A DNA stretch of 64,000 nt from a phage: the sequence record PZ386978.1; one strand, 5' to 3'. The notes under the pieces are model-generated. The model was not told where the DNA came from. It worked only from the letters and a program-made list of their open reading frames with translations, and made no database searches. A program made the translations under genes and the position numbers. Below are positions 56,403 through 63,593 of this stretch, in pieces (the first letter of the stretch is position 1; each line of letters opens with the position of its first letter).

Positions 56403-57818
56403 ATGAGCGAATTATTTAAACATGCGCACCTTCATGCAGGTCGAACTGAAAATGTTGCTGTAAACCATACTTCATCAATGTCTGCTCTTGTAGACTTTTA
56501 CAAAGCTGCTGGTTCAAGCCGTAGCAATGTAGAAATCTTACCAGACCTGTTCTACAAAGCTTTGCGTGAGGATGTTGATGTTGCAGTTCGTATTTTACTG
56601 CATATGCGAGATGTACGAGAAGGTATGGGTGAGCGTAAAGCCTTCAGAACTGTTTTACTTCAAGCAATCGAAGACAAAGTTTTAGAGCCTACACAGGTTC
56701 TTCGCATTATGGATAAGATTGCAGAACTTGGTCGTTTTGATGACTTCAAAATCTTCGTAGGTACTCGTTTCGAGACAGATGCCTTCAAACATTTAGAAGC
56801 AGCATTACTAGACCCTGCAACAGCAGGTTTGGCAGCTAAGTGGTTACCACGAGTCAAACCACGTCATAAACAGTTTGTAAAACGTTTCTGCAAGTTTGCC
56901 AACTTGAGTGAGAAAGAGTACCGTACACTGTTGTCTGCACTATCTGATACAGTTGAGCAAAAAATCTCTGCTAATGAGTTTGGTAAGATTGATTACAGTA
57001 AGATTCCTTCACTTGCTGCTGCACGTTACCAAAAACTGTTTAACCGTAAAGATGGAGAACGCTACAAAGCTTACATTGAGTCTTTATCAAAGGGTGAGGC
57101 TAAGATTAATGCTGGTGCTGTTTACCCATACGATGTGATTAAATCTGTCAAGCATGGTAATGCAGATGTTGCTAATGAGCAGTGGAAAGCACTACCAAAC
57201 TGGATGGCAGAGGGTGAAAACATCTTATGTATGACTGATGTTTCAAGCTCAATGTCTTGGGTGAATTTTGGTTCAATCACTGCTCTTGATATTGGCGTAT
57301 CACTTGCCTTGTATGTAGCAGAACACAATACAGGTTGCTTTAAGGATGAGTTGATGGTTTATTCAACAAACCCTCACTTCATTGAACTGAGTGGTGATTT
57401 ACGAAACCGTCATCGTCAGGTGATGCGATACGTTGAATATGGCTCAACTAACTTACAAGCAGCTTTTGAACGCATTCTTGAGATAGGTAAGAGAAACAAC
57501 TTGACTCAGAAAGATATGCCAAGTAAGCTTATCATCTTCTCCGATATGGAGTTCAATCAGGTTGATGGAGCTAACGGTCGTACAAACTTTGAAGCAATTC
57601 AGAGTAAGTACAAGAAAGCTGGATACGAAATGCCACAACTGGTATTCTGGTACTTAGCAAACCGTAATGGTACTTGCGAAGTATCTGTTAAGGATAACGG
57701 TGTAGCAATGGTATCTGGTTTCTCTCCAGCCACTTTAAAAGCTCTGCTTGGTGGTGAGAAGTTTGACCCAATCAGCGTAATGCTCAAAGCAGTAATGATT
57801 GACCGTTATATCTGGTAA
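56403..57818 (+). CDS. vWA-domain protein (MIDAS DxSxS), possibly Ro60/TROVE-like
   Basis: 471 aa; MIDAS-like CMTDVSSSM in C-terminal half; helical N-terminal half; TROVE assignment is a guess. Confidence 0.45.
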   Translation: MSELFKHAHLHAGRTENVAVNHTSSMSALVDFYKAAGSSRSNVEILPDLFYKALREDVDVAVRILLHMRDVREGMGERKAFRTVLLQAIEDKVLEPTQVLRIMDKIAELGRFDDFKIFVGTRFETDAFKHLEAALLDPATAGLAAKWLPRVKPRHKQFVKRFCKFANLSEKEYRTLLSALSDTVEQKISANEFGKIDYSKIPSLAAARYQKLFNRKDGERYKAYIESLSKGEAKINAGAVYPYDVIKSVKHGNADVANEQWKALPNWMAEGENILCMTDVSSSMSWVNFGSITALDIGVSLALYVAEHNTGCFKDELMVYSTNPHFIELSGDLRNRHRQVMRYVEYGSTNLQAAFERILEIGKRNNLTQKDMPSKLIIFSDMEFNQVDGANGRTNFEAIQSKYKKAGYEMPQLVFWYLANRNGTCEVSVKDNGVAMVSGFSPATLKALLGGEKFDPISVMLKAVMIDRYIW

Positions 57819-57836: not shown

Positions 57837-57865
57837 TTGACAATGTGTTTGATACCCTTTAATAT
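57837..57865 (+). promoter_or_regulatory. sigma70-like promoter upstream of tRNA cluster
   Basis: TTGACA 57837-57842, 17 nt spacer, TAATAT 57860-57865. Confidence 0.55.
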
Positions 57866-57927
57866 GTTCTACATAGAAACGAAACGAGAGCTTTTCTAAG
57901 ATACTGAAAAATATTTTAAAAAAGTTC

Positions 57928-57958
57928 TTGACAATCACTAAAAAATAATGTTAAAGTG
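57928..57958 (+). promoter_or_regulatory. possible second promoter upstream of tRNA cluster
   Basis: TTGACA 57928-57933 with weak -10 candidates (TTAAAG/TAAAGT). Confidence 0.35.
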
Positions 57959-57983: not shown

Positions 57984-58057
57984 CTCTGTTTAGCTCAGCT
58001 TGGTAGAGCGTTCCGTTTGGGGCGGTAAGGCCGGAGGTTCAAGTCCTCCAACAGAGA
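57984..58057 (+). tRNA. tRNA-Pro (anticodon UGG)
   Basis: Acceptor CTCTGTT/AACAGAG, D-arm GCTC..GAGC, anticodon loop TTTGGGG, T-arm GGAGGTTCAAGTCCTCC, CCA encoded. Confidence 0.7.
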
Positions 58058-58067
58058 CCAAATTAAT

Positions 58068-58142
58068 GTTCCAGTAGACAAAATGGTATAGTCACCACTC
58101 TTTCAAAGTGGATATTTGAGGGTTCAAATCCCTTCTGGAACG
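58068..58142 (+). tRNA. tRNA-Glu (anticodon UUC)
   Basis: Acceptor GTTCCAG/CTGGAAC, anticodon stem CCACT/AGTGG with loop CTTTCAA, T-loop TTCAAAT, CCA encoded. Confidence 0.7.
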
Positions 58143-58152
58143 CCAGTTTTGA

Positions 58153-58226
58153 CAGAAGACCAATTACAGCAAACTTAATCTTATTCATCTGAAGGTAAAT
58201 CGGACAAAGAAGAGATTTGGTCTGGT
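58153..58226 (+). ncRNA. conserved stem-closed element, copy 1
   Basis: CAGAAGACCAATTACAGCAA...ATTTGGTCTGG; stem AGACCAA/TTGGTCT. Confidence 0.4.
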
Positions 58227-58237
58227 CATTAAGAATT

Positions 58238-58310
58238 GCGGGTATAGAGAAAGGGCGTCTCACATGTCTCATTAGCATGGTATCGGCAGGTTCGACTCCT
58301 GCACCCGCCT
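58238..58310 (+). tRNA. tRNA-Met family (anticodon CAU; initiator, elongator or Ile-lysidine undetermined)
   Basis: D-stem GAGA/TCTC, anticodon stem CATGT/GCATG with loop CTCATTA, T-arm GCAGGTTCGACTCCTGC; acceptor boundary ambiguous by 1 nt. Confidence 0.6.
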
Positions 58311-58317
58311 CCAAATT

Positions 58318-58384
58318 TACAGAAGACCGTTTACAGCAATATTTATTAAATTTTTAGCGGAAAAATTGAAAGATACGGTCTGGT
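58318..58384 (+). ncRNA. conserved stem-closed element, copy 2
   Basis: CAGAAGACCGTTTACAGCAA...ATACGGTCTGG; stem AGACCGT/ACGGTCT (compensatory to copy 1). Confidence 0.4.
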
Positions 58385-58396
58385 AATACTAAACAT

Positions 58397-58470
58397 GGTT
58401 AGGAAGCACATAAGGTATGTGCGGTCGCCTGTTAAGCGAATGGCACAGGGTTCGAATCCCTGACTAACCG
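58397..58470 (+). tRNA. tRNA-Asn (anticodon GUU)
   Basis: Acceptor GGTTAGG/ACTAACC, D-stem GCAC/GTGC, anticodon loop CTGTTAA, T-arm CAGGGTTCGAATCCCTG, CCA encoded. Confidence 0.7.
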
Positions 58471-58542
58471 CCAAATTTAGGAGAGAAGCGATTGCTCACC
58501 GATTTGTAAGGTGCAAGTCCTTAGCCTGAATAGAAATTAAAT

Positions 58543-58627
58543 GTGTCGTTATCCCGTAGATGGTAGCGGTGGGGACTGTAAATCCCTTGTCATTGAGACT
58601 CGGTAGGTTCGACTCCTACACGGCACA
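58543..58627 (+). tRNA. tRNA-Tyr (anticodon GUA), long variable arm
   Basis: 85 nt; acceptor GTGTCGT/ACGGCAC, anticodon loop CTGTAAA, long variable arm, T-arm GTAGGTTCGACTCCTAC, CCA encoded. Confidence 0.65.
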
Positions 58628-58635
58628 CCAATAAA

Positions 58636-58710
58636 GGTTATGTAGTTTAATTTGGTTAAAATACTCCCCTGTCACGGGAGATGATGAGGGTTCAAATCCA
58701 TTCGTAACCG
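58636..58710 (+). tRNA. tRNA-Asp (anticodon GUC)
   Basis: Acceptor GGTTATG/CGTAACC, anticodon stem CTCCC/GGGAG with loop CTGTCAC, T-loop TTCAAAT, CCA encoded. Confidence 0.65.
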
Positions 58711-58773
58711 CCAATTTTGAGAGGGCTATTTAGCCCCTCCCTTAAAGAGTTCTTACGAGTATTCTTTAAAGGA

Positions 58774-58849
58774 GCAGAAGACCAAATACAGCAAGTTACT
58801 TAAAATTTCAAGCCAATTTAATTTTGAAAAATTTAAAACTTGGTCTGGC
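58774..58849 (+). ncRNA. conserved stem-closed element, copy 3
   Basis: CAGAAGACCAAATACAGCAA...CTTGGTCTGG; stem AGACCAA/TTGGTCT. Confidence 0.4.
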
Positions 58850-58860
58850 TCAACAAATTT

Positions 58861-58993
58861 ACAGAAGACCGTTTACAGCAAAACTTAAACAATCTATTTC
58901 TCGGTAAAGAAAAGGCGAAGGTTCGATTCCTTCACTCGGCAGATGTCGAGTTGGTGTAATGGTAGCACTTAAGATGATAAACAACGGTCTGGT
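58861..58993 (+). ncRNA. conserved stem-closed element, copy 4, with an embedded permuted tRNA-like segment
   Basis: CAGAAGACCGTTTACAGCAA...AACGGTCTGG; interior has T-arm GAAGGTTCGATTCCTTC + ACTCGGC directly followed by GTCGAGT + D-arm-like GGTGTAATGGTAGCAC. Confidence 0.4.
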
Positions 58994-59136
58994 AATTATC
59001 TTTGTAGATAAGTTATTAAGCTTACCTGTGAGTATGCGACCACAAAGGGTGAAGGGTAAATTCTAGATTTAAACCCAAAAAGGCACATCGCTACAGACCT
59101 TAAGCAAGTCTGGGTAGCTTATCTACAAAGATAATT
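58994..59136 (+). repeat. 19 bp perfect inverted repeat enclosing ~105 nt
   Basis: AATTATCTTTGTAGATAAG at 58994-59012 and its exact reverse complement CTTATCTACAAAGATAATT at 59118-59136. Confidence 0.6.
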
Positions 59137-59140
59137 TAAT

Positions 59141-59213
59141 GGAAGTGTAGCAGAATGGTGATGCGGCAGACTTTTAATCTGACAGGCGATGGGTTCGAAT
59201 CCCTCCACTTCTA
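59141..59213 (+). tRNA. tRNA-Lys (anticodon UUU)
   Basis: Acceptor GGAAGTG/CACTTCT, anticodon loop CTTTTAA, T-loop TTCGAAT, CCA encoded; paralogue of tRNA at 60730. Confidence 0.6.
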
Positions 59214-59220
59214 CCAATAT

Positions 59221-59294
59221 GGTTCAGTCGCAGATAAGGTAATGCAAGGGTCTCATAAGCCCTATGAATGTGGGTTCGATTCCCATCTGAACCT
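59221..59294 (+). tRNA. tRNA-Met family, second copy (anticodon CAU)
   Basis: Acceptor GGTTCAG/CTGAACC, anticodon stem AGGGT/GCCCT with loop CTCATAA, T-loop TTCGATT, CCA encoded. Confidence 0.65.
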
Positions 59295-59298
59295 CCAA

Positions 59299-59371
59299 GC
59301 TGGTATAGTTAAGAAGGTTATAACACTCCCCTGATAAGGGAACATCGGTGGTTCGATTCCACCTACCAGTA
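59299..59371 (+). tRNA. tRNA-Ile (anticodon GAU)
   Basis: Acceptor GCTGGTA/TACCAGT, D-stem GTTA/TAAC, anticodon loop CTGATAA, T-arm GGTGGTTCGATTCCACC, CCA encoded. Confidence 0.7.
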
Positions 59372-59389
59372 CCAATTTCAATAAAGTTG

Positions 59390-59418
59390 TTGACATTGAG
59401 ATGTGACTACTTTATAGT
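59390..59418 (+). promoter_or_regulatory. sigma70-like promoter inside tRNA cluster
   Basis: TTGACA 59390-59395, 17 nt spacer, TATAGT 59413-59418. Confidence 0.55.
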
Positions 59419-59622
59419 AACCTTAGTTTTCGTTGCGTAGCGTCTATTTTGCAAATTTAAAATAAATGCAAACGACAATGTTTTTCTGGCAGTAGCTTGA
59501 TAGGCTAAACACCAGTGAGGTCTTCCAATCCCTCATCAAAGAATTTGGCGTACTAGCCCACGGTATGATTAATAAGGTGGGCATCTTTAAGGGCTTTCTA
59601 AGAGAGTCTTTAAAGATAATTA

Positions 59623-59701
59623 CGGGGCGTATCTCAGCTGTCTTCTAAACAGCCGTTAATCGAGTAAGTGGAGTATGCGGGTTCGAGTCCTGCCGCCTCG
59701 A
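59623..59701 (+). ncRNA. atypical tRNA-like gene (acceptor + T-arm + anticodon-like hairpin with loop CTTCTAA; no recognisable D-arm)
   Basis: Acceptor CGGGGCG/CGCCTCG, T-arm GCGGGTTCGAGTCCTGC, hairpin GCTGT-CTTCTAA-ACAGC (would read UCU, Arg), 22 nt extra segment, CCA encoded. Confidence 0.4.
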
Positions 59702-59718
59702 CCAATTTTGGAGAAATC

Positions 59719-60066
59719 ATGAAAACTTGTATTAGGTGCAAACTCAGCAAGGATGAAAATGATTTCTACATGAAAGATGGTAGGAGAACTCATTCATACT
59801 GTAAAAAGTGTGTTAATGAGCAAACCATAGAAAGACAAAGAGCACTTAAACTCTCAGCTATTGAGTACAAAGGTGGGGTTTGTCACGATTGTGGTAAAAA
59901 GTATCATCCAGCAGTGTATGACTTCCATCATTTGAATCCTTCAGATAAAGATTTTAACATTGGTCATAGGAAAAGCCTTAAGTTCTCTCAAGAACTAAAA
60001 GATGAACTTGACAAATGTGTTTTGCTATGTTCAAATTGCCATAGGGTAAGACATGCAAAGTATTAG
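59719..60066 (+). CDS. HNH endonuclease within tRNA cluster
   Basis: Start at MKTCIRCK with GGAG SD (track start 59668 overlaps the upstream tRNA-like gene); zinc-finger cysteines and HNH core DFHHLNP...CSNCHRVRH. Confidence 0.7.
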   Translation: MKTCIRCKLSKDENDFYMKDGRRTHSYCKKCVNEQTIERQRALKLSAIEYKGGVCHDCGKKYHPAVYDFHHLNPSDKDFNIGHRKSLKFSQELKDELDKCVLLCSNCHRVRHAKY

Positions 60067-60203
60067 TTAGCAGATTACTTAGACGACCTTAGCGGGTCTC
60101 CGTGTAGGGAGGTGGTCTGTATCTCATGTTTTCCAGAACATGTAAATAATCTGAGAAGGGGCTTTACAGTGTTGAGATAATACGGTAAGCTTCGAATTAT
60201 AGT

Positions 60204-60283
60204 GTGGGACGATGTTAAGACTCTAAGGCATGAGCAACGGCCTCCAAAACCGTTTCAAAGGGGTTCAACTCCTCCGTCCCATG
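60204..60283 (+). tRNA. tRNA-Trp (anticodon CCA), 5' boundary uncertain
   Basis: Anticodon loop CTCCAAA, T-loop TTCAACT, acceptor GTGGGAC/GTCCCAT, CCA encoded; D-region longer than canonical. Confidence 0.5.
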
Positions 60284-60299
60284 CCAAAGTCTTATTAGG

Positions 60300-60387
60300 G
60301 GTAGGTAGCGGCTAATGGCAGCCAAACAGTCTTGAAAACTGTTGCCACTGTAGAGATACGGTGAGGGTTCGACTCCTTTACTTACCG
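60300..60387 (+). tRNA. tRNA-Ser (anticodon UGA), long variable arm
   Basis: 88 nt; acceptor GGTAGGT/ACTTACC, anticodon stem ACAGT/ACTGT with loop CTTGAAA, long variable arm, T-loop TTCGACT. Confidence 0.65.
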
Positions 60388-60644
60388 CCTAATAAGATTT
60401 AAAGCCAAGCTTCATTCGGATGTTGCTTTGGTATCACTCGTGTATTGTCGTACACACTGATAAAACACTTAGTAGGTGTCACGGAGAAGAGATAATATCA
60501 AGCTCTCCAAAGGTTCTAGTCACCGGATTAAACAAGACTATGCAAAGACCTTTTTAGGTCTTTTTAGAGGGCTTCTAAGGTTATTACAGCTTGTTGTGGA
60601 ACCTTGTTGCTTAGGTTCTTAGAAGTTCTCTAAAAAGATTTAAT

Positions 60645-60719
60645 GGGAGATTGATGGTAATTGGTAAACCTATCTCGCTTAGAACGAGATGTTTGAGGGT
60701 TCGAATCCCTTGTCTCCTA
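60645..60719 (+). tRNA. tRNA with anticodon UAG (Leu by anticodon) but short variable arm
   Basis: Anticodon stem TCTCG/CGAGA with loop CTTAGAA, T-arm GAGGGTTCGAATCCCTT, acceptor GGGAGAT/GTCTCCT, CCA encoded; 5 nt variable loop. Confidence 0.5.
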
Positions 60720-60729
60720 CCAAATTAAT

Positions 60730-60802
60730 GCAGGTGTAGCAAAATGGTTATGCGGCTGACTCTTAATCAGTAAGACGATGGGTTCAATTCCCTCCACCTG
60801 TA
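60730..60802 (+). tRNA. tRNA-Lys (anticodon CUU)
   Basis: Acceptor GCAGGTG/CACCTGT, anticodon loop CTCTTAA, T-loop TTCAATT, CCA encoded. Confidence 0.6.
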
Positions 60803-60811
60803 CCAGACATT

Positions 60812-60884
60812 GGGGTCATAGTTTATATGGTTAAAATTCGAGTTTTGCAAACTTGGGAACTGAGTTCAATTCTCAGTGACTCCA
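60812..60884 (+). tRNA. tRNA-Ala (anticodon UGC)
   Basis: Acceptor GGGGTCA/TGACTCC, anticodon loop TTTGCAA, T-arm CTGAGTTCAATTCTCAG, CCA encoded. Confidence 0.65.
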
Positions 60885-60893
60885 CCAATTAGT

Positions 60894-60965
60894 GCATCCA
60901 TAGTTTAAACGGGAAAATTACAGTCTTCCAAACTGAGGTTGAGGGTTCGATTCCCTCTGGATGCT
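60894..60965 (+). tRNA. tRNA-Gly (anticodon UCC)
   Basis: Acceptor GCATCCA/TGGATGC, anticodon loop CTTCCAA, T-arm GAGGGTTCGATTCCCTC, CCA encoded. Confidence 0.7.
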
Positions 60966-60975
60966 CCAAATTAAT

Positions 60976-61048
60976 GCTCCTATCGTATAATCGGCTATTA
61001 CGGTTGCCTTGTAAGCAACTTATCAGGGTTCGAATCCTTGTGGGAGCA
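60976..61048 (+). tRNA. tRNA-Thr (anticodon UGU)
   Basis: Acceptor GCTCCTA/TGGGAGC, anticodon stem GTTGC/GCAAC with loop CTTGTAA, T-loop TTCGAAT, CCA encoded. Confidence 0.7.
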
Positions 61049-61054
61049 CCAATT

Positions 61055-61143
61055 CAGAGGTCAAGTGAAAGACCGCTGGTGTCAACTGAAGACCGTAACA
61101 AATTCCACGGAGTTGAGTTAGCGGCACAACTTCAGACCTCTTT
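61055..61143 (+). ncRNA. large hairpin element between tRNAs
   Basis: Outer stem CAGAGGTC / GACCTCTT enclosing ~75 nt that contains CTGAAGACCGTAACAA (related to the CAGAAGACC elements) and inner stem TGAAG/CTTCA. Confidence 0.35.
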
Positions 61144-61146
61144 CAT

Positions 61147-61218
61147 ACTCGCTTAGTTTATATGGTAAAACATCACCCTTACAAGATGAAGAAAAAGGTT
61201 CAAGTCCTTTAGTGAGTA
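61147..61218 (+). tRNA. tRNA-Val (anticodon UAC)
   Basis: Acceptor ACTCGCT/AGTGAGT, D-stem GTTT/AAAC, anticodon loop CTTACAA, T-arm AAAGGTTCAAGTCCTTT, CCA encoded. Confidence 0.65.
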
Positions 61219-61222
61219 CCAT

Positions 61223-61297
61223 GTTCCAGTATCCCAATTGGCAGAGGATGCAAGCTCAAACCTTGTATTAGTGACGGTTCGAATCCGTCTTGGAACA
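61223..61297 (+). tRNA. tRNA with anticodon CAA (Leu by anticodon) but short variable arm
   Basis: Acceptor GTTCCAG/TTGGAAC, anticodon stem GCAAG/CTTGT with loop CTCAAAC, T-arm GACGGTTCGAATCCGTC, 75 nt, CCA encoded. Confidence 0.5.
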
Positions 61298-61305
61298 CCA
61301 ATTTT

Positions 61306-61378
61306 GCAGGATTAGTTCAAATGGATAGAGCAACAGTCTACGAAACTGTTAATAGGGGTTCGAATCCCTTATCCTGCG
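61306..61378 (+). tRNA. tRNA-Arg (anticodon ACG)
   Basis: Acceptor GCAGGAT/ATCCTGC, anticodon stem ACAGT/ACTGT with loop CTACGAA, T-loop TTCGAAT, CCA encoded. Confidence 0.7.
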
Positions 61379-61399
61379 CCAGATAAGCAAGAGGAATTT

Positions 61400-61642
61400 A
61401 TGCAAACATTAACCGTCGTTGAACATGAAAATTCCAATAGTATTGAGTTTGTAAGGGTTCCCACTATAGATACCCACATTTTCTTAAAAGTCGGATGGGA
61501 ATGCGACCCAATAAAAGTAGAAAGATTTATTGGTCATTGCTTTGGTGGAAGACAACTTAAAAGTGTCAATTTTGAGACAATGTTGCCAGAAAGCTCAGAA
61601 ACAAATAATAATGCTTACCTCCTTACGAGGGTTAGACAATGA
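61400..61642 (+). CDS. hypothetical protein within tRNA cluster
   Basis: 80 aa ORF between tRNA genes; coding status uncertain. Confidence 0.3.
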   Translation: MQTLTVVEHENSNSIEFVRVPTIDTHIFLKVGWECDPIKVERFIGHCFGGRQLKSVNFETMLPESSETNNNAYLLTRVRQ

Positions 61643-62196
61643 GATACTTAAAATATGCTTCATGGATTTTCTTAGCTTTACTAGACCCAATTGCAGCAAT
61701 CCTAGCAGTTATCTTAGCACCTTTCGTAGTTCCATTCTACAGTGAGAAGAAAGGGCATCTACCTTTTGGATTCAGATGGATGGAGACCTATGACAACCCA
61801 ATTGATGGTGACGAAGGTCACGTTAAAAGATGGGCTAAGATTAGAAAGATTGGTAAGCTAGGTGTCTACATGCAGAGAGTCGGATGGCTATGGAGAAACA
61901 AAGCTTATAACTTCTCTTACCATGTATTAGGAAGAGATGTAAAAGATGTCACTAAGTGGAAAGGTAATATCAACGTAAGTTCTGACCCTGAAGATAATCA
62001 GACAGGTTATCTCCTAATGTGGAACAACAATGCTTGGGGATTATTTGCTTTTATTCCGTCAATTAAAGTCTTTGGTAAACAGTTTTACTGGAGAATTTAT
62101 GTTGGATGGAAACTAAAAAGTGTTGTCCCAGAAGAAAGAGCATTCTCAAGGGAAAGAGTTATGTTGGCATTCTTTATTCATCCACTGAGAAAGTAA
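61639..62196 (+). CDS. hypothetical membrane protein within tRNA cluster
   Basis: 185 aa; N-terminal hydrophobic helices IFLALLDPIAAILAVILAPFVVPF; Trp-rich. Confidence 0.45.
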   Translation: MRYLKYASWIFLALLDPIAAILAVILAPFVVPFYSEKKGHLPFGFRWMETYDNPIDGDEGHVKRWAKIRKIGKLGVYMQRVGWLWRNKAYNFSYHVLGRDVKDVTKWKGNINVSSDPEDNQTGYLLMWNNNAWGLFAFIPSIKVFGKQFYWRIYVGWKLKSVVPEERAFSRERVMLAFFIHPLRK

Positions 62197-62204
62197 AGAT
62201 TTAA

Positions 62205-62277
62205 AGGGGATTAGTTTACAAGGTTAAAACCTCGGTCTTTGAAATCGAAGAAGTTGGTTCAATTCCAACATCCCCCG
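62205..62277 (+). tRNA. tRNA-Gln (anticodon UUG)
   Basis: D-stem GTTT/AAAC, anticodon loop CTTTGAA, T-arm GTTGGTTCAATTCCAAC, acceptor 3' ATCCCCC, CCA encoded. Confidence 0.65.
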
Positions 62278-62282
62278 CCAAT

Positions 62283-62358
62283 GCTCCATTACTCCAATTG
62301 GCAGAGAGGCCAGACTTAAAATCTGTGTTATGTATCGGTTCGAATCCGATATGGAGTA
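62283..62358 (+). tRNA. tRNA with anticodon UAA (Leu by anticodon) but short variable arm
   Basis: Acceptor GCTCCAT/ATGGAGT, anticodon loop CTTAAAA, T-arm ATCGGTTCGAATCCGAT, 76 nt, CCA encoded. Confidence 0.5.
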
Positions 62359-62366
62359 CCAAATTT

Positions 62367-62439
62367 AGCGGTATAGCATAACTGGCAATGCAACAGTCTC
62401 TGAAGCTGTCCTATTAAGGTTCAAATCCTTATGCCGCTG
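62367..62439 (+). tRNA. tRNA-Gln (anticodon CUG)
   Basis: Acceptor AGCGGTA/TGCCGCT, D-stem GCAT/ATGC, anticodon loop CTCTGAA, T-arm TAAGGTTCAAATCCTTA, CCA encoded. Confidence 0.65.
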
Positions 62440-62473
62440 CCACTTCTAAGGGTTCTTACGAGAGTCCTTAAAT

Positions 62474-62546
62474 GTGGCCTTATCATAAATGGTAATGACC
62501 CATGCTGTGAACATGGTCTATACGGGTTCAAATCCCGTAGGTCACC
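62474..62546 (+). tRNA. tRNA-His (anticodon GUG)
   Basis: Acceptor GTGGCCT/AGGTCAC, D-stem TCAT/ATGA, anticodon stem CCATG/CATGG with loop CTGTGAA, discriminator C, CCA encoded. Confidence 0.7.
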
Positions 62547-62554
62547 CCAATTTA

Positions 62555-62629
62555 TAGTCCAAGTAGCTTATATGGTTAAAGCGCGTGTCTGAAAAACATG
62601 AGAAGAGGGTTCAAATCCCACTGGACTAC
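62555..62629 (+). tRNA. tRNA-Phe (anticodon GAA)
   Basis: Acceptor TAGTCCA/TGGACTA, anticodon loop CTGAAAA, T-loop TTCAAAT. Confidence 0.65.
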
Positions 62630-62647
62630 CAATTTCAAAGGTGCTTA

Positions 62648-63382
62648 ATGAAAGAGATGACAGAACAAGGTAAGGAGATTTTTAATCTCTTAAAAACCGG
62701 TAAAGGGTTTTCTAACCCACTTATTACTGGTGCAGCAGTTCTCGGTGGAACCGTAGCTGCCTCTACATCACTTGTAAGCTCTATTAGCTCTGTAACAGAC
62801 CCTACAATGAAGGAGAAGCTTGTTGCTGCTGGACTTACAACAGTCCTTCTAAACAGTTTTACAACCAGCCTTACAAGCACTACAGCAACTACTAAGACCC
62901 TAACAGACTATGGTCAAAAGTCTATTGATGAGTTTTCATCACGTATGCAGGTAGCAAAGGGCTATTCCAATGTTATGGGTGCAGCAGGAGAACAAGTTGG
63001 TTGTACACCATTTAGTGGTATTATGGGTGTTGCTACAGAATATGGTCAAAAAGCTATTGACATGATGAACAGTACACTAGATAGTGTTAACGGTGTATTA
63101 AGTGACTTACAAGACGCTATTGACAAGGGTCTTGATACCGTTTCTGATTTAGCTAACCAAGCTGTTAGCAAGATTAATGAAGGTATCTCAAAGATTACAG
63201 CTTATGCAGATGAAGTTGTGCAGATGATTGAAGAAGAAGCTGCCCTTATTGCAGAGTACCTTAAAACGAATATCAATGGGTTCTTAGCAGGTATCTTACC
63301 AGATTGGTTTGATGATGCTTGTAAAACTGGTGTGATTGACACTATTGCAACACCAGAAATGAAGAACGCATTACAGAAATAA
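62648..63382 (+). CDS. hypothetical Ser/Thr-rich protein with hydrophobic segment
   Basis: Start at MKEMTEQ (track start 62585 overlaps tRNA-Phe); segment PLITGAAVLGGTVAASTSLVSSISSV. Confidence 0.45.
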   Translation: MKEMTEQGKEIFNLLKTGKGFSNPLITGAAVLGGTVAASTSLVSSISSVTDPTMKEKLVAAGLTTVLLNSFTTSLTSTTATTKTLTDYGQKSIDEFSSRMQVAKGYSNVMGAAGEQVGCTPFSGIMGVATEYGQKAIDMMNSTLDSVNGVLSDLQDAIDKGLDTVSDLANQAVSKINEGISKITAYADEVVQMIEEEAALIAEYLKTNINGFLAGILPDWFDDACKTGVIDTIATPEMKNALQK

Positions 63383-63383
63383 T

Positions 63384-63473
63384 GGAAGATTAACCCTAAA
63401 AGGTAAGGGAGCAGTTTGCTAAACTGCCAGTAGCTGAGAAATCGGTGTACCAGTTCAAGTCTGGTATCTTCCT
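63384..63473 (+). tRNA. tRNA-Ser (anticodon GCU), long variable arm
   Basis: 90 nt; acceptor GGAAGAT/ATCTTCC, anticodon stem GCAGT/ACTGC with loop TTGCTAA, long variable arm, T-arm ACCAGTTCAAGTCTGGT, CCA encoded. Confidence 0.7.
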
Positions 63474-63480
63474 CCAATTT

Positions 63481-63553
63481 GAATCCGTGACAGAAATGGC
63501 TATGTGCCTGTCTGCAAAACAGGTTTATAAGGGTTCGAGTCCCTTCGGATTCT
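63481..63553 (+). tRNA. tRNA-Cys (anticodon GCA)
   Basis: Acceptor GAATCCG/CGGATTC, anticodon stem CCTGT/ACAGG with loop CTGCAAA, T-arm AAGGGTTCGAGTCCCTT, CCA encoded. Confidence 0.7.
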
Positions 63554-63593
63554 CCAAGTTATTTTACTCTCTCTCAATTAAAATAATAATAAT

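What the first reader, a model, noticed from the sequence alone, without database searches (positions are those of the whole stretch)
58905..58966. Permuted tRNA-like segment: T-arm and 3' acceptor immediately followed by a matching 5' acceptor and D-arm
Inside element copy 4 a perfect T-arm (GAAGGTTCGATTCCTTC) and 3' acceptor strand ACTCGGC are followed within 4 nt by GTCGAGT, which pairs with that acceptor, and a D-arm-like GGTGTAATGGTAGCAC. No anticodon arm follows. This is either a circularly permuted or split tRNA gene, a tRNA remnant from recombination, or an overlap of two decayed tRNAs.
Basis: seen in the sequence. Interest (0 to 1): 0.5.

Follow-up and report, generated by a model that had tools for sequence, protein, structure and literature searches.

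The report
Phage Y-RNA-like tRNA mimic
The "permuted tRNA" is real, but it is not a tRNA gene or a remnant: it is the tRNA-shaped domain of a small non-coding RNA of the Y-RNA type, one of four encoded just downstream of the phage's Ro60-like protein gene, and it appears to identify the RNA partners that two recent papers on such phage proteins could only guess at.

Summary
T-arm, 3' acceptor strand, a 4-nt cap, a matching 5' acceptor strand and a D-arm lie at 58917-58968, with no anticodon arm and no CCA. It is not a tRNA gene or debris. A helix (58866-73/58983-90) encloses the segment and is followed by a conserved UACAGCAA motif. The window holds four copies of this helix+motif module (58150-58995); only copy 4 has the tRNA-like insert. 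All lie within 1.2 kb downstream, same strand, of a 471-aa protein whose model matches only Ro60/TROVE structures full-length. In 80 loci from other phages that encode homologs, 96 of 141 modules lie beside the gene on its strand. 32 such loci contain no tRNA. A covariance model built without Felixounavirus sequences finds 58865-58991 as top hit (50.5 bits, E~3e-7). 22 of 24 pairs covary. Sister genera rewrote the capped acceptor helix with full compensation. One contig carries the un-permuted form. Best reading: a YrlA-like Y RNA partnering a phage Ro60-like protein. It fails YrlA's GNCGAA motif and has no Rfam match, so it is a new variant of a known kind. Binding and function are inferred. 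The protein's Ro60 likeness was already published; the RNAs were not, in the literature I could search.

The parts
56403..57818 (+). Gene for the 471-aa Ro60-like protein (HEAT-repeat ring plus vWA domain; Pfam DUF2828+DUF7788; ortholog of Bas63 gp130)
   Evidence: Pfam match. AF2 model with pLDDT 89 and pTM 0.88. The top 12 Foldseek PDB hits are all Ro60/TROVE, full length, E 3e-8 to 2e-6, TM up to 0.65, and the next hits are vWA-only with E>1e-3. Invariant D279-x-S281-x-S283, T349 and D381, positions consistent with a vWA MIDAS motif. PHROG 850 'RNA-binding protein'. bas63_0130 is the ortholog.
57837..57957 (+). Two sigma-70-like promoters (57837-57865 and 57928-57957) ahead of tRNA-Pro; likely drive the tRNA and module transcript
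   Evidence: 10/12 consensus matches each; no + strand terminator-like site through 59400. These are consensus matches only, and the total count in the region was not above the shuffled expectation.
58150..58228 (+). Module 1: outer helix UGAC/GUCA, AGA/G internal loop, inner helix AGACCAA/UUGGUCU, UUACAGCAA motif, short hairpin insert. Lies between tRNA-Glu and tRNA-Met.
   Evidence: Conserved at the same position in Mooglevirus and Suspvirus.
58317..58386 (+). Module 2: UUAC/GUAA outer helix, AGACCGU/ACGGUCU inner helix, UUACAGCAA motif, short insert. Lies between tRNA-Met and tRNA-Asn.
   Evidence: The outer helix changes with compensation to UUGC/GCAA in Suspvirus CHB7. Weak full-length R1 hit of 18.7 bits.
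58772..58851 (+). Module 3: GAGC/GCUC outer helix, AGACCAA/UUGGUCU inner helix, AUACAGCAA motif, AU-rich hairpin insert
58859..58995 (+). Module 4, the whole RNA that contains the finding: UUAC/GUAA outer helix, AGA/G loop, inner helix, motif, and the permuted tRNA-like insert
   Evidence: MFE fold. R1 model built without Felixounavirus sequences gives 58865-58991 at 50.5 bits, E~3e-7, over the full model.
58866..58873 (+). Basal (inner) helix, 5' strand AGACCGUU; pairs with 58983-58990
   Evidence: 8/8 pairs. All 8 pairs of this helix show double-sided changes across members.
58874..58881 (+). Conserved motif UACAGCAA; family consensus U-W-CAGCAA. Proposed protein-binding internal loop, opposite the A-rich 58974-58982.
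   Evidence: C, G, C, A invariant in 12 members. Present in all 4 window modules and in modules of 60/80 distant loci. Also present in Listeria phage cka15.
58884..58887 (+). CUUA, pairs with UAAG 58970-58973; a 4-bp stub in the place of the anticodon stem
   Evidence: MFE fold. Not tested by covariation.
58893..58915 (+). Long variable-arm hairpin (UCUAUUUCU-CGGUAA-AGAAAAGG), class-II-like
   Evidence: Fold. HP1 has a different hairpin at the same place, CUUUCA-GGGUA-UGAGAG, read.
58917..58933 (+). T-arm GAAGG-UUCGAUU-CCUUC
   Evidence: 4 of its 5 pairs covary across members; G53-C61 is conserved.
58934..58951 (+). Capped acceptor helix: ACUCGGC (58934-40), A73-like A plus GAU cap (58941-44), GUCGAGU (58945-51)
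   Evidence: 7/7 pairs. All 7 pairs covary across members. Rewritten with compensation in sister genera.
58952..58968 (+). U8-G9 then the D-arm GUGU-AAUGGUA-GCAC, with A14, G18 and G19 present
   Evidence: 2-3 of its 4 pairs covary.
58983..58990 (+). Basal (inner) helix, 3' strand AACGGUCU

Best explanation
The segment is the tRNA-mimicking domain of a ~137-nt non-coding RNA (58859-58995) built like a bacterial YrlA-type Y RNA. Its 5' and 3' ends pair into a bulged basal helix. A conserved single-stranded UACAGCAA motif sits just above that helix. The apical part folds as a tRNA without an anticodon arm: variable arm, T-arm, an acceptor helix closed by a 4-nt cap, and a D-arm. Three sister RNAs (modules 1-3) share the basal helix and motif but carry plain hairpins instead, like YrlB next to YrlA.

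Proposed mechanism:
1. The RNAs are transcribed with the tRNA array from the promoters at 57837-57957.
2. They are cut free by the same RNase P and 3'-end processing that matures the flanking tRNAs. Modules 1 and 2 lie 4-10 nt from tRNA ends.
3. The phage's Ro60-like ring protein, encoded immediately upstream, binds the basal helix and motif.
4. The tRNA-like domain then brings in, or occupies, a tRNA-recognising factor.
5. Because the acceptor helix has 7 bp plus a discriminator-like A, RNase P may also cut at 58944/58945. That would give a two-piece RNA with a free acceptor end, as shown for M. smegmatis YrlA.

Shown here by computation: the RNA structure, its family, the genomic linkage to the protein gene, and the protein's fold. 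Inferred: expression, processing, binding, and any role in the anti-defence activity reported for the Bas63 ortholog.
For: Structure:
- Long-range helix and cloverleaf in the MFE fold.
- 98.3% and 96.8% of cells paired, against ~58% shuffled and 39-46% slid.
- 21-22 of 24 pairs have double-sided changes.

Blind homology:
- Model R1, built only from other phages, finds 58865-58991 at 50.5 bits, E~3e-7. The next hit is 21 bits and is an ordinary tRNA junction.
- Orthologs in Mooglevirus and Suspvirus score 47-54 bits. Their acceptor helices are fully rewritten: ACUCGGC/GUCGAGU, ACACGU/GCGUGU, ACCCUUC/GAAGGGU.

Partner protein:
- Foldseek top 12 hits are all Ro60/TROVE.
- The Listeria phage homolog matches Rsr by HHpred according to its authors.
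- Mycobacteriophage homologs are annotated 'Ro-like RNA binding protein'.

Linkage:
- 96 of 141 modules lie on the gene's strand within 2.5 kb, against 14, 16 and 15 in the other classes. The reversed control gives 36 hits, evenly spread.
- 60 of 80 loci have at least one module.
- All 16 significant R1 hits are on the gene's strand.
- 32 loci have a module but no tRNA.
- Three modules lie directly upstream of the homolog in Listeria phage cka15, after a consensus promoter. That paper reports very high transcription of unannotated regions there.

Architecture: the arm order V-T-AS-D and the capped acceptor are those described for YrlA.

Processing precedent: some members encode N73-CCA in the cap (L037b, L047, L063b, HP1). 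M. smegmatis YrlA is cut by RNase P and receives CCA.
Against: - No expression, processing or binding data exist for this phage.
- The YrlA 5' motif GNCGAAN0-1G is absent from the basal region. A GGCGAAG string at 58914-58920 lies in the T-stem and is not conserved in L002.
- Rfam gives no Y-RNA or YrlA hit. I could not confirm that Rfam holds a YrlA model.
- The protein is linked to Ro60 only by fold. Profile searches of PDB sequences do not reach Ro60.
- Members used for the pair counts were chosen for having these helices, so the percentage paired is partly built in.
- The 80 loci are not independent lineages; several are near-identical.
- The link between the cka15 modules and that paper's highly transcribed regions is my inference, because the text gives no coordinates.
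Confidence: 0.7

Rival explanations
1. The modules are cis-acting elements of the transcript rather than free RNAs that form a particle. Examples would be an autoregulatory operator or a stabiliser of the Ro60-like mRNA, or processing and punctuation signals inside the tRNA precursor. In this reading the tRNA-like insert serves as an extra RNase P entry site.
For: In many loci a module starts 25-35 nt after the protein's stop codon, where a 3'-UTR element would sit. In the window the modules lie between tRNAs in one probable transcription unit. The 7-bp acceptor helix would suit RNase P.
Against: There are up to four copies per genome, spread over 1.2 kb and separated from the gene by tRNAs. 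The apical domains are variable and elaborate while the base is constant, which is the modular design of Y RNAs. In Listeria phage cka15 the modules are upstream of the gene behind their own consensus promoter. A mere cleavage signal would not need a conserved D-arm, T-arm and variable arm with tertiary-contact nucleotides.
Confidence: 0.13
2. It is a real structured tRNA-mimic RNA that works independently of the Ro60-like protein. It might act as a decoy or sponge for host tRNA-targeting defence nucleases or tRNA-modifying enzymes, or as a two-piece tRNA-like molecule that is given CCA and perhaps charged.
For: The tRNA core is complete and conserved. Several members encode CCA in the cap, and L037 carries standard-order units with a free CCA end. 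The phage invests heavily in tRNAs.
Against: This does not explain the conserved helix+CAGCAA base, which modules without any tRNA-like insert also have. It does not explain why that base tracks the protein gene even in loci without tRNAs. No anticodon arm exists for anticodon nucleases to recognise.
Confidence: 0.1
3. It is a functional circularly permuted or split tRNA gene whose halves are rejoined or assembled into a decoding tRNA.
For: 3' half before 5' half with a perfectly matching acceptor stem. ARAGORN accepts the un-permuted core.
Against: No anticodon stem-loop exists in any order. The 4-bp stub leads into the basal helix. No bulge-helix-bulge motif, no intron, no CCA. ARAGORN with introns allowed and Rfam find nothing. 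The 29-nt variable region exceeds what ARAGORN accepts. The standard-order relatives in L037 also lack an anticodon arm.
Confidence: 0.02
4. It is debris: a tRNA remnant from recombination or two decayed neighbouring tRNAs, without function.
For: It lies in a tRNA array that also contains homing-endonuclease genes and at least one degenerate tRNA-like sequence.
Against: It is conserved in 246 phage records at 80% coverage or more. All four helices are maintained by compensatory change across genera and across unrelated phages. It is enclosed by a helix that covaries. It is detected blind by the R1 model. Real junctions do not cross-pair.
Confidence: 0.02

Closest known systems
YrlA, the bacterial Y RNA with a tRNA-like domain (Chen et al. 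2014, PMC4201824; structure preprint 10.1101/312249)
   Same: It is encoded within a few kb of a Ro60-type gene on the same strand. Its 5' and 3' ends form the basal stem. The apical domain mimics tRNA with the arm order V, T, capped acceptor-like stem-loop and D, has no free CCA end, and has the anticodon stem replaced by the stem leading to the protein site. Shorter sister RNAs without the tRNA domain occur alongside it (YrlB).
   Different: The 5' motif is U-W-CAGCAA above a helix that often begins AGR, not GNCGAAN0-1G. The partner protein belongs to Pfam DUF2828/DUF7788, not TROVE. There is no Rfam match. The acceptor helix is a full 7 bp and the variable arm is long. It lies inside a phage tRNA array. 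Binding has not been tested.
M. smegmatis YrlA, which is processed by RNase P and receives CCA (PMC4201824)
   Same: It has a 7-bp acceptor-like helix. Some relatives of the window RNA even encode N73-CCA in the cap (HP1, L037b, L047, L063b), which suggests the same cleavage into a two-piece RNA.
   Different: No cleavage data exist here, and the window copy has no CCA (cap A-GAU).
Thermus phage phiLo Ro60 with Yrl1 and Yrl2 (PMC12135203)
   Same: A phage-encoded Ro60-fold protein with small RNAs encoded beside it. 9kop and 9l5y are the two best structural matches of the window protein.
   Different: The phiLo RNAs were picked by the CGAA motif and a stem-bulge-stem shape, and no tRNA-like domain is described for them. 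Binding was shown there and not here.
Bas63 gp130 (PhageMaP preprint 10.1101/2024.10.10.617714) and Listeria phage CKA15_055 (PMC12282133)
   Same: These are the same protein family. gp130 is the direct ortholog. Both papers noted the Ro60/Rsr likeness and suspected nearby Y RNAs.
   Different: Neither paper identified the RNAs. PhageMaP guessed that some annotated tRNA genes might be Y RNAs. Here the candidates are un-annotated modules between the tRNAs, defined by a helix plus the CAGCAA motif.
Circularly permuted tRNA genes (Cyanidioschyzon merolae) and two-piece, permuted tmRNA genes
   Same: The 3' acceptor/T-arm part is encoded upstream of the 5' acceptor/D-arm part, and the junction lies at the acceptor end.
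   Different: Those genes yield a decoding tRNA (with an anticodon arm and bulge-helix-bulge processing) or a tmRNA (with a tag reading frame and pseudoknots). None of these features is present. ARAGORN and Rfam tmRNA models give no hit at this site.

Membership tests
YrlA-type Y RNA (criteria of Chen et al. 2014) | Encoded within ~4 kb of a Ro60 ortholog, on the same strand | tested here: met
   Module 4 starts 1.04 kb after the stop of ORF 56403-57818, on the same strand. The protein is Ro60-like by fold only. It matches Pfam DUF2828+DUF7788; no TROVE model was reported at E<=0.01.
YrlA-type Y RNA (criteria of Chen et al. 2014) | GNCGAAN0-1G motif near the 5' end (the presumed Ro60 contact) | tested here: not met
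   The 5' region reads UUACAGAAGACCGUUUACAGCAA. The only GNCGAAG string (58914-58920) lies in the T-stem and is changed in L002. A different motif, U-W-CAGCAA, is conserved instead.
YrlA-type Y RNA (criteria of Chen et al. 2014) | tRNA-like module in the order V arm, T arm, capped acceptor-like stem-loop, D arm | tested here: met
   Covariation in all four helices.
YrlA-type Y RNA (criteria of Chen et al. 2014) | Nucleotides for tRNA tertiary contacts (U8, A14, G18-G19, T-loop UUCRA, G53-C61, Levitt pair 15-48) | tested here: inconclusive
   U8, A14, G18G19, UUCGA and G53-C61 are present. Positions 15/48 read A/C, which is not a standard Levitt pair. No 3D test was done.
YrlA-type Y RNA (criteria of Chen et al. 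2014) | Bound by the Ro60/Rsr protein; carries tRNA-type modifications | not testable with these tools
   Needs immunoprecipitation and modification mapping.
YrlA-type Y RNA (criteria of Chen et al. 2014) | Match to a curated covariance model | tested here: not met
   No Rfam hit other than a T-arm fragment at E=7. There were none in 10 related loci either. I could not verify that Rfam 15 contains a YrlA model.
Ro60/TROVE protein (for the partner ORF) | HEAT-repeat ring plus C-terminal vWA domain with a MIDAS motif | tested here: met
   Full-length Foldseek matches to 9kop, 9l5y, 2i91, 1yvp, 1yvr, 2nvo and 9nep. Invariant DxSxS, T and D positions consistent with MIDAS.
Ro60/TROVE protein (for the partner ORF) | Sequence membership (Pfam TROVE, or a profile hit to solved Ro60 structures) | tested here: not met
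   Pfam gives DUF2828+DUF7788 only. phmmer and an hmmsearch profile against PDB sequences do not reach Ro60.
Canonical tRNA gene | Acceptor, D, anticodon and T arms in standard order; detected by tRNA finders | tested here: not met
   No anticodon arm. No call by ARAGORN, with or without introns, or by Rfam tRNA.
Circularly permuted tRNA gene (algal type) | 3' half upstream of 5' half, joined at the acceptor end | tested here: met
Circularly permuted tRNA gene (algal type) | A complete anticodon stem-loop split at, or flanked by, a bulge-helix-bulge processing motif, yielding a decoding tRNA | tested here: not met
   Only a 4-bp stub (58884-87/58970-73) that leads into the basal helix; no anticodon loop.
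Two-piece (permuted) tmRNA | tRNA-like domain plus a tag reading frame and pseudoknots | tested here: not met
   No ARAGORN tmRNA call. The weak Rfam tmRNA and tmRNA_permuted hits lie elsewhere, at 59316-59621, below threshold.

The most novel reading that the evidence does not exclude
The helix + U-W-CAGCAA modules are a previously undescribed, widespread class of Y-like RNAs. They would be the dedicated partners of the DUF2828-type Ro60-like proteins found in at least 710 cultured phage genomes, from Felixounavirus to Herelleviridae, mycobacteriophages and jumbo Vibrio phages. Their exchangeable apical domains include tRNA mimics in both permuted and standard order. Some of these carry an encoded CCA, are cut by RNase P into two-piece tRNA-like molecules, and the particle is what counters host defence (the 'ppl' system for Bas63 gp130).
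Probability: 0.45. Interest if true: 0.8.

Novelty: new variant of a known kind. Interest (0 to 1): 0.66.

Why it matters
Ro60-Y RNA particles are known from animals to bacteria, but their function in bacteria and phages is poorly understood. Two recent studies found a Ro60-like protein in a Felixounavirus and in a Listeria phage, and each could only guess at its RNA partners. In the Felixounavirus the protein counters an anti-phage defence system. In the Listeria phage it was detected in purified virions, next to the most highly transcribed regions of the genome.

This analysis gives concrete, testable RNA candidates with exact coordinates, a defining motif, a working covariance model and a secondary structure. 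It also shows that the same RNA-protein pairing recurs in very different phage groups. In addition, it documents a natural case where one RNA architecture exists in both circular permutations, and it explains un-annotated gaps and doubtful small ORFs in the tRNA regions of hundreds of deposited phage genomes.

Tried and rejected
- ARAGORN on the un-permuted construct with the native 29-nt variable region found nothing. I traced this to the variable-region length rather than to a poor tRNA core.
- phmmer and a 32-sequence profile against PDB sequences did not reach Ro60. Only the structure comparison did.
- Rfam at lax thresholds gave nothing useful.
- A full-text search for DUF2828 returned only irrelevant plant and tardigrade papers.
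- Plain MAFFT misaligned the acceptor cap and the 3' basal strand. I replaced it with a segment-parsed, N-padded alignment.
- One member of my set, 'L037a', turned out to be the junction of two standard-order tandem units whose helix strands are quasi-palindromic. It stayed in the A3/A4/A5 counts and in the R1 training set as 1 of 10-16 rows.
- In tandem arrays such as L012, the 5' half of one unit can also pair with the 3' half of the next. The permuted reading is therefore not the only possible one there. In the window it is the only one.
- My first loose motif scan was too noisy (409 hits against 114 in the control) and was replaced by a stricter one.
- A search for standard-order forms found only the L037 units.
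- I considered group I intron halves, an attP-like tRNA fragment and a terminator. There is no intron hit, the phage lineage is virulent (my own knowledge, not tested here), and there is no U-run after the helix.

Full report
**1. Context.** The window is a Felixounavirus (FelixO1-like phage of Escherichia and Salmonella); 409 phage records match this stretch. It carries a 25-gene tRNA array at 57984-63556 on the + strand. The finding lies in a 427-nt gap (58714-59140) between tRNA-Asp and tRNA-Lys. Neither ARAGORN nor Rfam calls anything there.

**2.
- Read directly, the parts are:
  - T-arm GAAGG-TTCGATT-CCTTC, 58917-58933
  - 3' acceptor strand ACTCGGC, 58934-58940
  - AGAT, 58941-58944
  - 5' acceptor strand GTCGAGT, 58945-58951, pairing 7/7
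  - TG, then the D-arm GTGT-AATGGTA-GCAC, 58954-68
- There is no anticodon arm and no CCA, unlike the other tRNAs of the array.
- It is not a chance tRNA junction. The 24 real junctions in the window cross-pair only 1-5 of 7, and non-cognate strands reach 7/7 in 5 of 600 combinations.
- A strict scanner for this topology gives 20 hits against 0 in reversed sequence over 1 Mb.
- I un-permuted the segment in silico, adding a dummy anticodon loop and one closing pair. ARAGORN failed at first. That was caused only by the 29-nt variable region. With 25 nt or fewer it calls a tRNA with 6/6 loops at default threshold, against 4/200 for shuffled halves.

**3.
- The MFE fold pairs AGACCGUU (58866-73) with AACGGUCU (58983-90). 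This encloses a cloverleaf read in permuted order: a 4-bp stub (CUUA/UAAG) in the anticodon-stem position, a long variable-arm hairpin, the T-arm, the acceptor helix capped by AGAU, and the D-arm.
- Below the helix there is an AGA/G internal loop and a 4-bp outer helix (UUAC/GUAA). Directly above it lies UACAGCAA.
They share the base, and their inner and outer helices covary between copies: CCAA/UUGG against CCGU/ACGG, and UGAC/GUCA, UUAC/GUAA, GAGC/GCUC.
- Only copy 4 carries the tRNA-like insert.

**4. The neighbouring protein.**
- ORF 56403-57818 (+, 471 aa) ends 166 nt before the first tRNA. Pfam gives DUF2828+DUF7788.
- Sequence and profile searches of the PDB do not reach any Ro60.
- A confident AF2 model (pLDDT 89, pTM 0.88) matches only Ro60/TROVE structures full-length. 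The top 12 hits are Thermus phage phiLo Ro60, Xenopus and human Ro60, and D. radiodurans Rsr, with E 3e-8 to 2e-6 and TM up to 0.65. After them only vWA domains follow, at E>1e-3.
- Invariant DxSxS, T and D positions consistent with a MIDAS motif are present. PHROGs names the family 'RNA-binding protein'.
- This likeness is already published:
  - The ortholog Bas63 gp130 was reported as Ro60-like and as a counter to the 'ppl' defence system. [quoted passage not shown]
  - The Listeria phage homolog CKA15_055 (29% identity) was linked to Rsr by HHpred. It was found in purified virions and lies within 2 kb of three very highly transcribed non-coding regions.
  - Mycobacteriophage homologs are annotated 'Ro-like RNA binding protein'.

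**5. The RNA module tracks that protein across phages.** I fetched 80 viral contigs that encode homologs at 38-98% identity.
- A scan for a helix of at least 7 bp abutting WCAGCAW found 141 modules. 96 lie on the gene's strand within 2.5 kb. The other three strand/position classes hold 14, 16 and 15. The reversed-sequence control gives 36, evenly spread.
- 60 of the 80 loci have at least one module, and it often starts 25-35 nt after the stop codon.
- 32 loci have a module but no tRNA anywhere in the fetched sequence, so the linkage is to the protein gene and not to tRNA arrays.
- The apical inserts vary. They include short hairpins, tRNA-like domains, and another conserved fold. This is the modular design of Y RNAs.
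- In Listeria phage cka15, three modules sit directly upstream of the gene behind a consensus promoter: AGGAAUC-UAACAGCAAU...GAUUCCU and two more.

**6. The tRNA-like members are one family.**
- I parsed twelve members from nine sources, the window and eight viral contigs, into segments. Their helices are almost perfect despite unrelated sequences.
- In that alignment 98.3% of cells pair, against 58% after shuffling and 39-46% with slid partners. 21 of 24 pairs show changes on both sides. The members were selected for having these helices, so this figure is partly built in.
- For an unbiased test I built model R1 from the ten non-Felixounavirus members. In the 64-kb window its top hit is 58865-58991 (+) at 50.5 bits, E~3e-7, over the full model. 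The next hit is 21.3 bits, partial, and is the tRNA-His/tRNA-Phe junction.
- Over 75 loci all 16 significant hits lie on the gene's strand, and six of them were not in the training set. On that alignment 96.8% of cells pair and 22 of 24 pairs covary.

**7. Evolution within the lineage.**
- Mooglevirus and Suspvirus keep the synteny and all four modules.
- The T-arm, D-arm, base and motif are conserved, but the acceptor helix is rewritten with full compensation:
  - ACUCGGC-AGAU-GUCGAGU in Felixounavirus
  - ACACGU-UACG-GCGUGU in Sf15 and CHB7
  - ACCCUUC-GCCAAACA-GAAGGGU in HP1, which thereby encodes G-CCA
- R1 scores these orthologs at 47-54 bits. This rules out decayed debris.

**8. Permutation is real.**
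- In contig L037 two tandem units have the standard order: 5' acceptor strand, D-arm, A-rich linker, a capped hairpin (CAAACU-GACA-AGUUUG), UAUUCAGCA, V, T-arm, 3' acceptor strand, N73, CCA. This is the same secondary structure opened at the acceptor end instead of at the base.
- The standard-order form is rare.
- It also showed that my 'L037a' was a junction of those two units. In tandem arrays both readings are possible. In the window only the permuted reading exists.

**9. Interpretation.**
- The architecture matches YrlA as defined by Chen et al.. That covers the gene position, the paired ends, the V-T-AS-D tRNA mimic without a free CCA, and sister RNAs lacking the mimic.
- It fails two membership features. 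The GNCGAAN0-1G motif is replaced by U-W-CAGCAA, and there is no curated-model hit. The partner protein is a different sequence family.
- I therefore file it as working like a YrlA-type Y RNA but as a new variant, not a member.
- Expression, release by tRNA-processing enzymes, protein binding to the base, possible RNase P cleavage at 58944/58945 (precedent: M. smegmatis YrlA), and any role in counter-defence are all inferences.
- Two consensus promoters precede the array, and no + strand terminator interrupts it.

**10. Rivals.**
- A cis-regulatory or processing element: 0.13.
- A tRNA decoy that works independently of the protein: 0.10.
- A true permuted tRNA gene: 0.02.
- Debris: 0.02.

**11. 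Novelty.** The protein's Ro60 likeness is known, and Y RNAs with tRNA mimicry are known, including in phages with TROVE-type Ro60. The RNA family defined here appears undescribed in Rfam and in the literature I could search. That covers its motif, its spread, its two permutations, and its identity as the candidate partner of these proteins.

Noticed in passing
window 58994-59136: A ~145-nt multi-branched hairpin lies immediately after module 4 (z = -6.9). Its long basal stem and a small inner hairpin (CAGAC-CUUAAGCAA-GUCUG) are kept by compensatory changes in Mooglevirus and Suspvirus (CAAACC-CUUUAGCAA-GGUUUG). It is probably a further structured RNA. The AGCAA loop recalls the module motif. 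There is no Rfam match.
   Followed up: partly
window 59622-59704: A tRNA-like sequence with a paired acceptor (CGGGGCG/CGCCUCG), A-CCA, a T-arm and an anticodon arm reading UCU (Arg), but no D-arm and a long extra region. ARAGORN rejects it even at -ps85, and Rfam gives only a weak tRNA-Sec-like hit (25 bits). The HNH-endonuclease ORF 59668-60066 starts inside it.
   Followed up: partly
window 60206-60280: A weak tRNA-like Rfam hit (23 bits) that shares a 23-nt stretch with the tRNA-Arg(UCU) annotated in Bas63. It may be a decayed tRNA-Arg in this phage.
   Followed up: no
L008 5276-5370, L009 3133-3232, L013 149-280, L019 1265-1373, L034 5734-5828: Modules with the same helix+ACAGCAA base carry a different conserved apical domain (...AACCUUUCUGGAGGGGAAAGCAAAAACUCGCC...). 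This suggests a second kind of effector domain in this RNA family.
   Followed up: no
L036 5786-5894: A family member in which the T-arm is followed almost directly by the D-arm. The capped acceptor helix is missing.
   Followed up: no
L086 (Listeria phage cka15) 6810-8021: An RtcB-type 'tRNA splicing ligase' gene lies 1.3 kb downstream of the Ro60-like gene on the same strand. This echoes the rsr-yrlBA-rtcBA operon of Salmonella.
   Followed up: no
L082 3234-3386 and 3398-3508 (bas63_0137, bas63_0138); L083 1956-2084 (HP1_22); window ORFs 58840-58959 (+) and 58859-58984 (-): Small 'hypothetical protein' genes are annotated across modules 3 and 4 and the following hairpin in deposited relatives. 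Given the RNA covariation they are probably not genes.
   Followed up: no
window 58474-58542: The 69-nt spacer between tRNA-Asn and tRNA-Tyr folds into a hairpin better than all 200 shuffles (z = -2.6). It has no CAGCAA motif.
   Followed up: no
hits H25/H90 (GU169904 'Staphylococcus phage SA1') and H52 (MG065664 'Campylobacter phage A132'): Records named for Staphylococcus and Campylobacter phages contain sequence 97-99% identical to this Felixounavirus. They are likely contaminated or mislabelled deposits.
   Followed up: no
L032 11696-11922: A group I intron (Rfam, 71.5 bits) in a distant phage contig that also carries the Ro60-like gene and modules.
   Followed up: no
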